The notes beneath the pieces were generated by a model. It worked only from the letters and a program-made list of their open reading frames with translations. It did no database searches and was not told where the DNA came from. The translations under genes were made by a program, and so were the position numbers. This document shows, piece by piece, positions 11,896-38,409 of a stretch of DNA of 64,000 bases. This stretch comes from Perna viridis (Eukaryota). The stretch is taken from the NCBI GenBank assembly GCA_037379345.1, contig CM074512.1:64253597-64317596 (forward strand). Direction: 5' to 3'. How positions within the stretch are numbered: the first letter of the stretch is position 1; each line of letters starts with the position of its first letter.

Positions 11896-12995
11896 TGGGT
11901 TCTGGATTCTCCTTAGACCCTCTAGCAGACGCACATGGACGTAATGACGGAGGCTTTGATGGTAACGTAGTTCAAGTTGTAGATCCGTCAGAAGTACGTC
12001 CCGTAACCAACATCACAGAAATAAACAATGTGACGCTTGATCCGTTTGAACAACTTCCAAGACGACATTGGAGGAGAAGACGACCCCCATTTTGGCGGGA
12101 AAATGCGTTCGGCTTCCCCATATCGCCATTTGGTCCATCAGCGGCTGGGTTTGGACGAAATCCCTTCTCTGGTCCGACCGCTGAGCAGAATAATAATCCA
12201 GACGTCCATTCCAATACTCATCTGCACAAACATGAAAGGGTTCCTTCGGTTCAACCAATAACAAGCGGGCCACAAACTATTGGGTCAAGTCTTTTGCAAA
12301 CTTTGGGAATACCAAACATGAACAGAAACATACCTGACAGCAACCCAACTAATAAGAGAAATTGGCTTAATTCTAAATCATCAAACTCAGCACCTACAGA
12401 AATGTTAACCCAGGCACTAAAACAAAATCTCCAAGACCCTAAAACAATTAATCAATTGAGTGAAGCTGTATTACAAGCTGTCGCAGGAAAAGTTGTTACA
12501 AATCTCGTTGACAAGTTAGTAGACAAAGTGTCTGGGAGTTTAAATCCATCAGTAAGTCTACCCGGCTTTGCACAGAATCAGGCTGGGCGTGGCTTTGGGC
12601 AACCTAATATTCCGGTGACACATACCCAGGGAGCCAACAGTGCGACAGTAATTCCAGTATTAGACCGCGGTGGTCCCGTTCATTTATCTCCAATAGCTTC
12701 AGGAGCACATTCCCAGGAACCAAATAGCGCGGCAATAGTTCCTGTAATAGACCACGGTGATCACGTTCATTTACCTCAAGGAACCTCAGGAATACATTCA
12801 GAGGGAGCAAATAGTGCGGCGGTGGTTCCGATAATAGACCATGGCGATCACATCCATTTACCACAAGGAGCAGTTTTGCCAGTGGTTAATCGCAATTCAC
12901 AAACAACACGAGTTCCTTCGAGATGGAACGGTAATATTAGGCCCTGGGTTAATTTTGGTATGAGGCGTCGGAATCCCTTTTTTGCTATTGGTTGA
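11896..12995 (+). CDS. Gene B terminal exon: probably secreted low-complexity P/N/G/H-rich protein with 3x29-aa repeats (HGDHxH); upstream exon not identified
   Basis: Acceptor catttaacatttcag|11896 (phase 1), 1.1 kb open frame with coding-like composition. Starts xGSG|FSL like a signal-peptide end; ATTAAA at 13055. Confidence 0.85.
12618..12880 (+). repeat. Coding tandem repeat, 3 x 87 nt (29 aa)
   Basis: His codons at 12621, 12708, 12795 mark period 87. Confidence 0.9.
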
Positions 12996-13072
12996 GGTAG
13001 CTGTGGGTTGACATTATAGATAAAACATTAACATGGACACAGTAATATTTTGATATTAAATTGTTTATTAAG

Positions 13073-14115: not shown

Positions 14116-15417
14116 TCATACTTCTTTGTTTGTAGACAAAAAACACAGCATCTTTTTAATGGATGTACGTCTTAACTTTATTCCATTTGATTTAGGCCTC
14201 GAATCTGTCCGTAATCTCTTTTTATCCCGGTCAAGTCTGCATTCCGTCATGTCGATGTAGTGATGACGATATTGTGGAGATTCAGTGTCCGAACAATCTA
14301 CTAAAATATTAAAGTTGGGTAGACCATTATTATTTAGGTCTAAAACCGACGTAGTGTCTCCATTTAATGCAGAATTTAAATCTGTTCCCGTTTCGATATG
14401 TTTGTTAGAATTTAAGTTATTTCCTATTTCTACAGTTTCCTGTTTGCCAGTCTGATATTCTTGTTTCATTTCATGAGAGTTTGATTTATACAATGTCCCT
14501 TTAGAACTGTGAAATGATCTTTCTCTCTCAATTTTGTGTACAAGTCTTACAAGAAACTCATTGATTTCATCTTGTCTAACAATTGCCCCTTGTGTCTTTT
14601 TACACAATTCTGGGTAAAAGTCCTCTACCACGGACCCAGGAAATTTATCAGAGAGGGCACACAGTAGTCTTACATCCATTTCATTCATAGAATCCAAATC
14701 GGAACACCAATTGTTCTTGTAAGTGTCTGGCTCACAATCGCCAAAAACTAAGACCAATTTGCGTGAATTTTCACTCCAGTTTAAATTTTCTGTTTCGTGT
14801 AAAACCCAGTCATGTTTTGTCGTCTGGTTCGAGTCCGCTGTATCTTTAAACTCTTCGAAAAATTTCGTGACTGTTGATCTGTCTGTTGTGAATGTGGTAC
14901 GTGTTAATACGTGATTTTTCCGTCCGTCAGGTGTGTTTCCGTAAAGCAATACTGCCACTCGTACGCCTGATGACTGTAAGAGTCGGTCACATGTTTGACA
15001 AATGTTTATTTTTGTATTGTCCAAATCACATTTCGTTCTTTCAGATATATTCAGACAAAACAGTACATCTAGAAAACGCTTGGAACTCACGTTTAATTCA
15101 TTTAGGAGAGTCAGTGAGTGTGGTTTAGGTATTTCAGTCACAGGAACACACATTTGTTCTTCAGTTTTGCATTTGGTTAGGAAATCTACATCTTCATCGA
15201 GAAGTTTCTCAGCCTGCAGCGTGGAATTTTCTGCTATGCCGATGTGTTCTAATGGTTTGCTTCTTTCTAAAACCTGGCCATTTAGAAGGATTTTTATTCT
15301 TATTGATGGAACTCCTTCTAAGTTTCCTACTTTTTCGTTTACGCTGCATACAAGATCGGACGGCTTGAAAGAAAATCGGTAATGTTTTTCATTCAGAATG
15401 ACTTTTACTGGAATCAT
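14116..15417 (-). CDS. Intronless 433-aa protein: N-terminal ubiquitin-like domain, degenerate vWA domain (vwkA/alpha-kinase-associated type), disordered basic C-terminus
   Basis: Residues ~1-71 follow the ubiquitin pattern (..SDLVCSVNEKVGNLEGVPSIRIKILLNGQVLE..PLEHIGIAENSTLQ). vWA-like strands LDVLFCLN, VRVAVLLYG, FTTD, LNWSENSRKLVLVFGDCEP. TATAAAAA ~95 nt upstream and AATAAA ~70 nt downstream on the - strand. Confidence 0.85.
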   Translation of the reverse strand: MIPVKVILNEKHYRFSFKPSDLVCSVNEKVGNLEGVPSIRIKILLNGQVLERSKPLEHIGIAENSTLQAEKLLDEDVDFLTKCKTEEQMCVPVTEIPKPHSLTLLNELNVSSKRFLDVLFCLNISERTKCDLDNTKINICQTCDRLLQSSGVRVAVLLYGNTPDGRKNHVLTRTTFTTDRSTVTKFFEEFKDTADSNQTTKHDWVLHETENLNWSENSRKLVLVFGDCEPDTYKNNWCSDLDSMNEMDVRLLCALSDKFPGSVVEDFYPELCKKTQGAIVRQDEINEFLVRLVHKIERERSFHSSKGTLYKSNSHEMKQEYQTGKQETVEIGNNLNSNKHIETGTDLNSALNGDTTSVLDLNNNGLPNFNILVDCSDTESPQYRHHYIDMTECRLDRDKKRLRTDSRPKSNGIKLRRTSIKKMLCFLSTNKEV

Positions 15418-15700
15418 TTTTTCTCTCGTAAAATTGACCGTAAGAAATTGCAGTTGTTTTTATCAAAGGTTTCGGACTTTAAATATAACCCACCAATCAA
15501 AGAATGTTTATTTTTATAGTACGGTAGGTTTAAATGCTTGTATCCATGTATAAATATTATTCATATATGTTCAATATTATACCTAACGTTATGGCTAAAA
15601 ATAACTTATCTGAACAATTTTATGTCGTTGAATTAACGGGCGGTGCCACTGATTTGCCGGTTTCAATTGTTTTATATTCATGAAAGTGTTAAAGGAAATG

Positions 15701-35575: not shown

Positions 35576-35893
<318 letters not shown>

Positions 35894-36329
35894 TAATTTT
35901 TAATGCTGAAACTTTTTTTTACCTATCAAGGAATTCATATATTATCAGCAGATAGCCTGCTGTTTGTATATAATTATTTATTCAGAAACAAAATTTTAAT
36001 GTTAATGTTAATTTCAAATGTAAAATTCAACATGAGACATCTTGAATAACAGATGACATTTTCTGAACACTAAACAGAAACTAACAAAATAGATTGCCAT
36101 ATTTAAAAAAAAATGGCACAGAAAGTAAAGAATGTAAAAAGCAAAATATTATACAAAAAAAAAATGGAAAAGAAAAGAGAAGAAAGAGCATAAAAAATAG
36201 AAAAGGAGCTCAAGGTCATGCTCTTATATTTGGTCAAAGGGACATAACTCTTGCAAAGAAACAGAAAAATATGTTTTCAATTTGGAGCCTACAATTTGTA
36301 ACCCCTGATTATTTTGGTTAAATTTGAAG

Positions 36330-36408
36330 ATGACCATGACACAGAATATGAGTATGAGGGTAGTGATAATGAAGAAGAGGATGATAACACTGCACCTGGG
36401 GAACCAAG
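36330..36408 (+). CDS. MAP4K4: Exon 14 (DDHDTEYEYEGSDNEEEDDNTAPGEPS)
   Basis: 79 nt, phase 1-2; family motif EYEYxGS...GEPS; weak AAG acceptor, so the exact start is less certain. Confidence 0.88.
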
Positions 36409-37596
36409 GTATTTACAGTTAACACATTAATTTTCCCAGTGTACTAATTTTCTTTACTTTTGCAGTGGACAGAAAACCATGAAAATTATTACCTGCAAAA
36501 ATAGATATCTGAAAATATGTTTATTTGATAGAATCTTCAAGAATAAATTTTTTACAGTATTTCATAGATACAACGGTAATATTTTCTCAGATAGGTGATG
36601 ATGGTGAAACTTTAAAAAAATCTTTCTAATAAAACAACAACGGAACTATAAACTGACTTTTTTCCAGTTATATCTTCCTATTTCTAACTAAAAAATTAAG
36701 CAAAGTCATGGCAAAACCATTTACTTTATTGTATTTGAAGAAGATGATGTATGGGCCCAAAGTCACCCCTTTTTTCTGCTTATGGTACTCAAATTTAAAA
36801 AAAATTACGGATGTTCCCGTAAAATGTATGAGGGACGGGGTAGGCACTTTCATTCATTGTATTTGAATGGGTGATCAGGCCTCTTGTCAAAATATAAAGT
36901 TAAATACAAAAACATTAATAGGACTTCTATGGGTGGCTCCCCTTGAGAAAAATTGTCTTCCCTGGGTACCTCATATCTTTAAATAGAACAGCACTGAGTA
37001 GGGTACACGAAAGATGTAACCTAAAATAGTGGGAAATAGTACCGTCCTACCTTCAGGAGCAAAATGTGAAGTTCTTTCGTGACATTCAAAATTGAAATTA
37101 TTCCATGAATCTGTATAGACACATTCAATTTGATATAATGCTGTCATTGACAATTATTGAGTATTTTTATATCAGGGCACTAACCAAGATAAAAAATATC
37201 AGAGAGTAAACAATGGAAAAAAAAATTAGTTGCTGATAAAATGAATTATTAGAATATTAGTAAATATTCCTACTGGTAGTAATTTCTAAAGTATTGTCCT
37301 GAATGAAAATTTAAACTGTAGTTGAAAGAGTATTTATTTATAAAAATATGGAACAAGGCTTGGAGTTTCATTTTTGCTCAGAAAGGACTGGAAGTTAGTA
37401 GGATAAGTAATTCCTAACTGCCAAATATTGTGAAGTATTCTATTTGCTATAAAAAGTGATAAAACTTCTAATAAGGTCTTAAACTGAAAAATTATTGACT
37501 TCAGTGAAAATATCCTGAATACTGATCACATGTTTTGTTAGGAAAAGTTTCAATTAATGTTGTTTTCTGTATGTTATAACACACCATCTGTTTTAG

Positions 37597-37904
37597 TTCC
37601 ATATTACAAATTCCTGGTGAATCCACACTGAAGAGAAACTTTCAGCTCATACAACAGAGAGAGGGTCAACCTGGAGCCAGACCTTCAGCCCCACCCCAGC
37701 AACTACACAATCAACAACAGAGGGGACAACAACAACAAAGGCCATCAGGTCATCACGGTCATCAACAAAGAGACCACGGAGGACACAGACCAGCATCATC
37801 ACATCAGGGCTGGCCTGTTTCTAGTCATTTCCAGGCCCAACCAGTCCCCCATTCTCAGCAGCAGGCCCAGAAACAACAGCAACCAAGACAGTCACAGATT
37901 ATTG
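37597..37904 (+). CDS. MAP4K4: Exon 15 (SILQIPGESTLKRNFQLIQ followed by Q/H/P-rich region)
   Basis: 308 nt, phase 2-1; PGESTLxRxF family motif. Confidence 0.93.
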
Positions 37905-38409
37905 GTAGGTGCTTTTGTCAAATTTTCCATTGTCAGGTTCTAAATTTGCTTTATATAGCTTCACAACCTGTTTTTATATGGTAGATTTTTAATGATTCCT
38001 TTTGAATATGATATCTGTTGAATTTAGTGTTTTAATTTGTTAACTGTACACTTTTAAGAGGTATTAAAATTTGTTTTGGGGCACTTCAAAATTTAATTTA
38101 GGATACAGGTTAATTATGACATCAAGTGTTTATCAATAGTAATGATTATTCTGACATTTAATTTGTAAAATATTAATTGATTATTGCAGAGGTCAAGTAT
38201 ATTTTTTTTACTCTTTAGAAATCAAGTTGTAAATGAAATAAATGAAAGTTTGTTTACATCATGATTTAACTATGTATGGATTTTAAATAGAAAATTCAAC
38301 CAGCTGATTAAAACCATTTTGATTTGTACCCTACACTTCATTCAGAGATTTCTTTCAATTTGGAAGCTTTAAAGAATGTCTGAATGTAATTTAAAACAAA
38401 ACCGTATAT

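What the first reader, a model, noticed from the sequence alone, without database searches (positions are those of the whole stretch)
12618..12880. Histidine-triad (HGDHVH/HGDHIH) motifs in repeats of an animal secreted protein
Seen: repeats 2 and 3 read VPVIDHGDHVHLP and VPIIDHGDHIHLP (12753-12770, 12840-12857); repeat 1 is degenerate (RGGPVH). Another His cluster (VHSNTHLHKH) lies upstream. Established: HxxHxH, typically HGDHxH between short hydrophobic strands, is the Zn-binding motif of streptococcal Pht proteins. Inference: a convergent extracellular Zn/Cu-binding or metal-crosslinked structural protein, relevant because some bivalves hyperaccumulate Zn and use His-metal crosslinks.
Basis: partly seen in the sequence, partly recalled or inferred. 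Interest (0 to 1): 0.7.

Follow-up and report, generated by a model that had tools for sequence, protein, structure and literature searches.

The report
Mussel protein with repeated histidine cluster
An unnamed, likely secreted protein of what is probably a mussel carries a short histidine cluster, repeated in tandem, that likely binds zinc or copper to cross-link the protein; it resembles the streptococcal zinc motif over only nine residues and is not a member of that family.

Summary
The motifs are real and at the stated places, inside a 366-codon terminal exon with an 87-bp unit repeated 2.9 times. Copies 2 and 3 differ mostly at silent sites (pS 0.48, pN 0.14, p=0.005); copy 1 has lost two of the three His. 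The gene belongs to a small unnamed family, probably of mytilid mussels. The closest relative keeps one identical HGDHVH. The 23 distant sequences never have HGDHxH: 21 keep the H-V-H core with a shifted HxxHxH (HTSHGH), and 2 lack the segment. So a His cluster is conserved, not a Pht site. Pht membership fails: Pfam 15.6 bits against a cut-off of 27, over 9 of 52 positions; the published PROSITE pattern 0 of 25; no confident fold. One HGDHxH per animal proteome is about what chance gives. The best-conserved parts are an Arg/aromatic motif and an amphipathic helix. Best reading: a likely secreted, largely disordered, Tyr- and Cys-free structural protein whose His cluster would give pH-switched Zn/Cu cross-links, a known mussel chemistry. 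Secretion, tissue and metal binding are not shown. Moderate to low interest.

The parts
11896..12995 (+). Terminal coding exon (phase-1 acceptor, 366 codons to the stop) of an unnamed Pro/Asn/Gly-rich protein, pI about 9.8, no Tyr, no Cys, 4.4% His
   Evidence: relatives
12618..12866 (+). Tandem array, 87 bp (29 aa) x 2.9; every relative found has one unit only
12666..12683 (+). Copy 1, degenerate (RGGPVH); 1 silent and 9 replacement differences from copy 2 over 15 codons
12753..12770 (+). Copy 2, HGDHVH; a further His 15 residues upstream (12708)
12840..12857 (+). Copy 3, HGDHIH; a further His 15 residues upstream (12795)
12204..12233 (+). Upstream His patch VHSNTHLHKH; His-rich but differently worded in relatives (an 11-aa GHH repeat of variable copy number in the distant group)
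12060..12098 (+). Arg/aromatic motif RRHWRRRRPPFWR, the best-conserved segment of the family (12-13 of 14 identical in all four relatives compared)
12390..12530 (+). Predicted amphipathic helix region ending in LVDKLVDKV (10-12 of 14 identical in relatives); model confidence only about 50
8327..8439 (+). Candidate upstream exon with ATG at 8355, a hydrophobic N-terminus and a phase-1 donor; splicing to 11896 not shown
   Evidence: motif scoring only

Best explanation
The exon encodes a likely secreted, predicted mostly disordered structural protein of a probable mytilid mussel, whose C-terminal histidine cluster (HGDHxH here, tandemly repeated, two copies intact) would bind Zn or Cu at seawater pH and cross-link chains. 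Shown: the motifs, the repeat, constraint on copies 2 and 3, decay of copy 1, the family, and turnover of the flanking His around an invariant H-x-H core. Inferred: secretion, storage in an acidic gland vesicle with protonated His, assembly through the conserved Arg/aromatic motif and amphipathic helix, and curing by His-metal bonds after release. HGDHxH is one lineage's wording of the cluster; its likeness to streptococcal Pht is a short sequence coincidence or a shallow convergence on a His-turn-His hairpin, not a Pht domain.
For: Copies 2 vs 3: pS 0.48, pN 0.14, Fisher p=0.005 over 26 codons; 0.50 vs 0.06, p=0.0035 over the 15 motif codons (window chosen after looking). The closest relative P0002 has VVPVIDHGDHVHLPHGD. 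21 of 23 distant sequences have NPHVHTSHGH at the aligned place, and a His also precedes the hydrophobic strand in all three groups: His number is kept while position shifts, which fits a flexible multi-His ligand patch. No Tyr and no Cys in 25 of 25 sequences, so neither DOPA nor disulfide curing is open to this exon. An N-glycosylation sequon lies just after VD[PS]S[ED]VR in 5 of 5 sequences checked, and the upstream neighbour has the layout proposed here (short hydrophobic phase-1 exon spliced to one large exon), confirmed by an RNA-type contig. The only named relative of the downstream neighbour is from Mytilus coruscus (1 of 6 hits). His-Zn/Cu curing on the step from acidic storage to seawater pH is described for preCols and mefp-12 (PMC13022425 sections 4, 6; PMC9999432 and PMC12721214 passages).
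Against: No metal binding, tissue or secretion is shown. His is only 4.4% here (6.6-9.2% in the distant sequences that keep the segment; 9.1 mol% in mefp-12). The His segment is among the less conserved blocks at distance (6 of 14 identical or fewer, against 11-13 for the Arg/aromatic motif and helix). 2 of 23 distant sequences lack it in frame, and copy 1 has decayed. Three RNA runs of unknown tissue (19-25% of each read) gave zero depth over 11551-12650. Family peptides were not found in the readable supplements of a published byssus and a shell proteome of one mussel species (sequences there are cut at about 400 letters, and the window's species was not established). No Mytilus relative of this protein was detected.
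Confidence: 0.45

Rival explanations
1. The His cluster works without metal: it is a pH-sensitive or polyanion/polysaccharide-binding beta-turn patch, or largely dispensable filler, in a secreted protein whose function rests on the Arg/aromatic motif and the helix.
For: The Arg/aromatic motif and helix are far better conserved than the His segment; in-frame loss of the segment in 2 of 23 distant sequences, from two sources; decay of copy 1; constraint between copies 2 and 3 covers the non-His residues too; HGDHxH is expected about once per proteome by chance.
Against: His are kept at this place in all three sequence groups although neighbouring residues changed, and the unit that was tandemly amplified in the window is the His unit. 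The two deletion sequences could be one rare allele or an assembly artefact; their DNA could not be read.
Confidence: 0.3
2. Each intact repeat folds into a small Pht-like beta unit that holds one Zn through HxxHxH plus a fourth ligand (the His 15 residues upstream or an Asp/Glu): true convergence on the streptococcal site.
For: PF04270 is the top Pfam hit for the three-repeat fragment (E 0.015) and the only one for the whole exon (E 0.66-0.69). The best low-confidence model puts two short strands around the HGDH turn in both copies. The motif is identical in P0002; the distant group has an HxxHxH too, in another register.
Against: 15.6 bits against a cut-off of 27, 9 of 52 profile positions, and only because two copies add up: single repeats and P0002 give no hit. 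PROSITE pattern of PMC3842936 met by 0 of 25, and its core without the upstream ligand also by 0 of 25, because prolines sit in the strand positions. No D/E/H lies 19-23 residues upstream of either triad (sequence). Model pLDDT 43.8, pTM 0.21. No PDB sequence match at E up to 10. The first His is missing in 23 of 23 distant sequences.
Confidence: 0.12
3. A metal-sequestering or detoxifying protein related to bivalve Zn/Cu accumulation.
For: Mussel byssus is reported to bind heavy metals (PMC6508894, abstract start in listing); the distant group is richer in His and has a second His repeat of variable copy number.
Against: Two intact sites in a 39-kDa chain, no Cys, single-copy gene; no reads on the exon in three RNA runs. 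That strong zinc accumulation is a trait of oysters rather than mussels is recalled; one search listed nothing that settles it.
Confidence: 0.07

Closest known systems
Streptococcal polyhistidine triad proteins (PhtA/B/D/E, Pfam PF04270; PMC3842936)
   Same: HxxHxH between short hydrophobic stretches, repeated, in a chain with long disordered parts.
   Different: Pht units are three-stranded sheets with a fourth ligand about 20 residues upstream (Glu63 with His83/86/88 in PhtD) and hand Zn to AdcAII; the pattern was found only in Firmicutes. Here the pattern fails in 25 of 25 sequences, prolines flank the motif, and the first His is not kept across the family.
His-rich mussel byssus proteins: preCol His-rich domains, mfp-4, mefp-12/mcfp-12 (PMC13022425, PMC9999432, PMC12721214)
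   Same: Probable clade; basic, largely disordered chain; local His clusters; a helical segment that could oligomerise, as in mefp-12.
   Different: No sequence likeness was detected (no named hit); fewer His; no Tyr, so no DOPA; His are not in the helix; foot expression not shown.
Squid His-rich beak proteins and suckerin His modules (PMC9999432 passages)
   Same: Mollusc structural proteins with short tandem His/Gly units that act as pH switches without a folded metal site.
   Different: Those have 10-16 mol% His and Tyr-bearing pentapeptides; this protein has 4.4% His and no Tyr. Analogy only.

Membership tests
Streptococcal Pht / PF04270 | HxxHxH motif, more than one copy | tested here: met
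   Two copies in the window protein; one copy in 22 of 24 relatives.
Streptococcal Pht / PF04270 | Score at or above the Pfam cut-off (27 bits) | tested here: not met
   15.6 bits for the fragment, 10.4 for the exon, none for single repeats or four relatives; no histidine-triad model hit in NCBIfam for 4 queries.
Streptococcal Pht / PF04270 | PROSITE pattern of PMC3842936 (upstream [DEH]-G-hydrophobic, three hydrophobic residues before and two after the triad) | tested here: not met
   0 of 25 sequences, full pattern or core.
Streptococcal Pht / PF04270 | Three-stranded beta unit around the triad | tested here: inconclusive
   Two-strand hairpins at pLDDT about 49; whole model 43.8; fold search 0 of 48,161 chains at Z 2 or more, not meaningful at this confidence.
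Streptococcal Pht / PF04270 | One Zn per triad, about 100 nM, transfer to AdcAII | not testable with these tools
   Needs ITC, ICP-MS or NMR.
His-metal cross-linked mussel structural proteins (functional class) | Encoded by a mytilid mussel | tested here: inconclusive
   Neighbour gene's only named relative is Mytilus coruscus at 34% identity; species not established.
His-metal cross-linked mussel structural proteins (functional class) | Signal peptide and secretion | tested here: inconclusive
   Phase-compatible candidate exon 8355-8439; no read spans the joint.
His-metal cross-linked mussel structural proteins (functional class) | Conserved His enrichment | tested here: inconclusive
   Local cluster in 23 of 25 sequences, but 4.4% His overall in the window protein and only H-x-H aligned throughout.
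His-metal cross-linked mussel structural proteins (functional class) | Expression in foot or mantle glands and presence in byssus, periostracum or shell | tested here: inconclusive
   Run tissues unknown; peptides absent from the readable supplements of two proteomes of one mussel species.
His-metal cross-linked mussel structural proteins (functional class) | pH- and metal-dependent assembly | not testable with these tools

The most novel reading that the evidence does not exclude
A mussel protein has independently evolved the Pht zinc site: a His-Gly-Asp-His hairpin with a third His and an upstream fourth His, amplified in tandem, serving as a folded Zn-clasp module in a DOPA-free, Cys-free marine material, while a sister lineage rebuilt an HxxHxH five residues downstream.
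Probability: 0.12. Interest if true: 0.62.

Novelty: new member of a known kind. Interest (0 to 1): 0.3.

Why it matters
If the cluster binds metal, this is a further, unnamed component of the His-metal chemistry now thought to cure mussel materials alongside DOPA, and it comes with natural controls: two intact copies, one decayed copy, a shifted-register version and deletion variants. That makes the rule for a minimal His cross-link directly testable with short peptides. It would not overturn anything: His-rich mussel structural proteins are known, and a six-letter match to Pht is near what chance gives.

Tried and rejected
Expression: no RNA holder listed; contig runs X7, X10, X13, X18 gave nothing on 11600-13070 (no proof of absence); the low X7 depth in bins 11551-12650 (0.3 and 1.77) was not reproduced and is not used. 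Structure: full-length model pLDDT 38.5, pTM 0.15; two-repeat model 43.8; fold search empty; PDB sequence search empty; ESM Atlas no usable hit for the exon or the repeat part. DNA around relatives: two metagenome scans found none (119 and 596 pattern matches, 0 confirmed), so their upstream exons and the deletion could not be read. Paralogues: only the locus itself in two genome searches and in a profile search of the window plus 80 kb upstream; a whole-genome profile search was not done. Likeness to the upstream neighbour is one 37-residue stretch at E 0.026: too weak to call paralogy. Horizontal transfer from bacteria rejected: spliced animal locus, no bacterial relative. Papers: HGDHVH, HGDHIH and RRHWRRR had 0 occurrences in the 40 of 59 papers listed; two searches listed no animal Pht-like case (20 of 25 and 11 of 11 listed). 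Supplement searches were empty for PMC6508894 (11 files; two xlsb files unreadable), PMC6641155 (4 files), PMC5911496 (4 files; not checked whether they hold sequences) and PMC7971044 (5 files; the part of the main table read has no sequences, so no test). Earlier scan notes: nothing.

Full report
Observation. The + frame 11874-12995 is open for 373 codons; a splice acceptor ends at 11895, so the exon is 11896-12995 and starts in phase 1. It holds an 87-bp unit in 2.9 copies at 12618-12866, with RGGPVH, HGDHVH and HGDHIH at the places given and VHSNTHLHKH at 12204-12233. The region is GC-richer than its flanks (0.45 in 12001-13000 against about 0.34), as coding DNA here would be. The protein is Pro/Asn/Gly/Val/Ser-rich, basic (pI 9.8), 4.4% His, without Tyr or Cys.

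Chance. The two triads come from one duplication. Counting the unit once, 141 of 20,000 shuffles contain HxxHxH and 0 of 20,000 HGDHxH; the analytic figure, 3.7e-5 per protein, means about 0.7 cases per 30,000 proteins with assumed residue frequencies. The genome holds 5 more HGDH[VI]H matches, all in open frames of 20-86 aa, against 2 for the control pattern. A scan of many windows will meet this word; its presence alone says little.

Constraint. Copies 2 and 3 differ at 8.5 silent and 8.5 replacement sites over 26 codons (pS 0.48, pN 0.14, Fisher p=0.005); over the 15 motif codons 5 and 2, both V/I (p=0.0035, window chosen after looking). Copy 1 against copy 2 shows 1 silent and 9 replacement differences in the same 15 codons, including two His and the Asp. 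So two copies are being kept and one has been let go.

Family. Three searches and cluster look-ups gave 25 sequences, none with an informative name: an allele of the window gene (P0001), one close relative (P0002, 41% by BLAST, 56-57% of aligned columns) and 23 sequences of a distant group in three 90% clusters (34-36%; 15 of 19 members of one cluster were listed). All relatives have a single unit, so the tandem array is recent. P0002 reads VVPVIDHGDHVHLPHGDVVPV. The distant group reads IPVNPHVHTSHGHxxPL: HGD is gone, H-V-H aligns, and HTSHGH forms an HxxHxH five residues further on in 21 of 23; P0013 and P0020 lack the 11 residues in frame. HGDHxH occurs in 0 of 23. The best-conserved blocks across groups are RRHWRRR(R)PPFWR (12-13 of 14), the helix ending LVDK[LI]VDKV (10-12), AGRGF and VDPSEVR; the His segment scores 6 of 14 or less at distance. 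Tyr and Cys are absent in 25 of 25. The gene is single-copy as far as two protein searches of the genome show.

Clade and context. The downstream gene (14116-15459, minus strand) has a ubiquitin-like domain; 1 of its 6 relatives is named, from Mytilus coruscus at 34%. A mytilid mussel is likely; the species was not established, and no Mytilus copy of the protein itself was detected. The upstream gene has a short hydrophobic exon spliced to one large exon, shown by a contig of run X7. For the target, the best phase-1 candidate is 8355-8439; sharing the neighbour's first exon is also phase-compatible. Neither joint is shown. Raw reads of X4-X6 (19-25% of each run) gave zero depth over 11551-12650 while X6 covered the upstream gene at depth 3-5, which fits expression restricted to a tissue or stage not sampled, but does not show it.

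Pht test. PMC3842936 (passages, sections 20 and 21) defines the unit as three strands with HxxHxH and a fourth ligand about 20 residues upstream, and gives a pattern found only in Firmicutes. The pattern and its core fail in 25 of 25 sequences: proline stands at the strand positions on both sides. Pfam PF04270 scores 15.6 bits (E 0.015; cut-off 27) on the three-repeat fragment, over profile positions 23-31 of 52; 10.4 bits on the exon; nothing on single repeats or on four relatives. Models are of low confidence (38.5 and 43.8); the better-placed features are a helix region and short two-strand hairpins around HGDH. No model with Zn could be made. It is not a Pht member; whether it works like one at the level of a His-turn-His hairpin stays open (0.12).

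Mechanism. Most likely (0.45) the chain is secreted and mostly disordered, gathers through the Arg/aromatic motif and amphipathic helix, and is locked by Zn or Cu bound to the His cluster once it meets seawater pH. The chemistry is described for preCols, mfp-4 and mefp-12 (PMC13022425 abstract, sections 4 and 6; passages of PMC9999432 and PMC12721214). Retention of His number with shifting position fits this better than a fixed site, and lack of Tyr and Cys removes the other two usual cross-links from this exon. Every functional step is inferred. The metal-free rival (0.3) rests on the weaker conservation, the deletion variants and the decayed copy. Detoxification (0.07) fits poorly with two sites per 39 kDa.

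Known or new. No name, family or paper was found for the protein (and the supplement searches, with the limits listed under Tried and rejected; unreadable or cut supplements could hold it). It is best filed as a new, lineage-restricted member of a known kind, the His-bearing low-complexity mussel structural proteins, with membership itself unproven. Interest 0.3.

Noticed in passing
window 1957-2032 and 2995-4490 (+): Unnamed two-coding-exon gene, splice shown by a contig of run X7 and low read depth in X4 and X6; 17-aa repeat x3 at 3343-3495 with one His each; no Pfam family at cut-off; shares a short VV[EQ]V[IV]DxSxV stretch with the target (E 0.026).
   Followed up: partly
window 14116-15459 (-): Single-exon ubiquitin-like protein (PF00240) followed by a region that looks vWA-like (recalled, not tested); it lacks about 70 residues that relatives have after the first ubiquitin-like domain.
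   Followed up: partly
P0003-P0025 (distant group): A second His repeat, an 11-aa PP[IM]QTGHHQ[GE]L unit in about 2 to 7 copies, sits where the window protein has its VHSNTHLHKH patch: independent tandem amplification of a His unit in the same family.
   Followed up: partly
L017 3400-4281 (+), about 77 kb upstream of the window: Another large single exon for a Gly/Pro/Gln/Arg-rich protein ending in a basic run and a GGLAAGLVLGALGALVLG tail, a further likely secreted orphan; no Pfam family at cut-off.
   Followed up: no
window 35576-37984 (+): Exons that read like a Ste20/MAP4K4 (misshapen) kinase (label recalled, not tested).
   Followed up: no
window about 5920-6057 and 8730-8960: Two pieces of an abundant transcribed interspersed repeat, on opposite strands, with read depth in the hundreds.
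   Followed up: no
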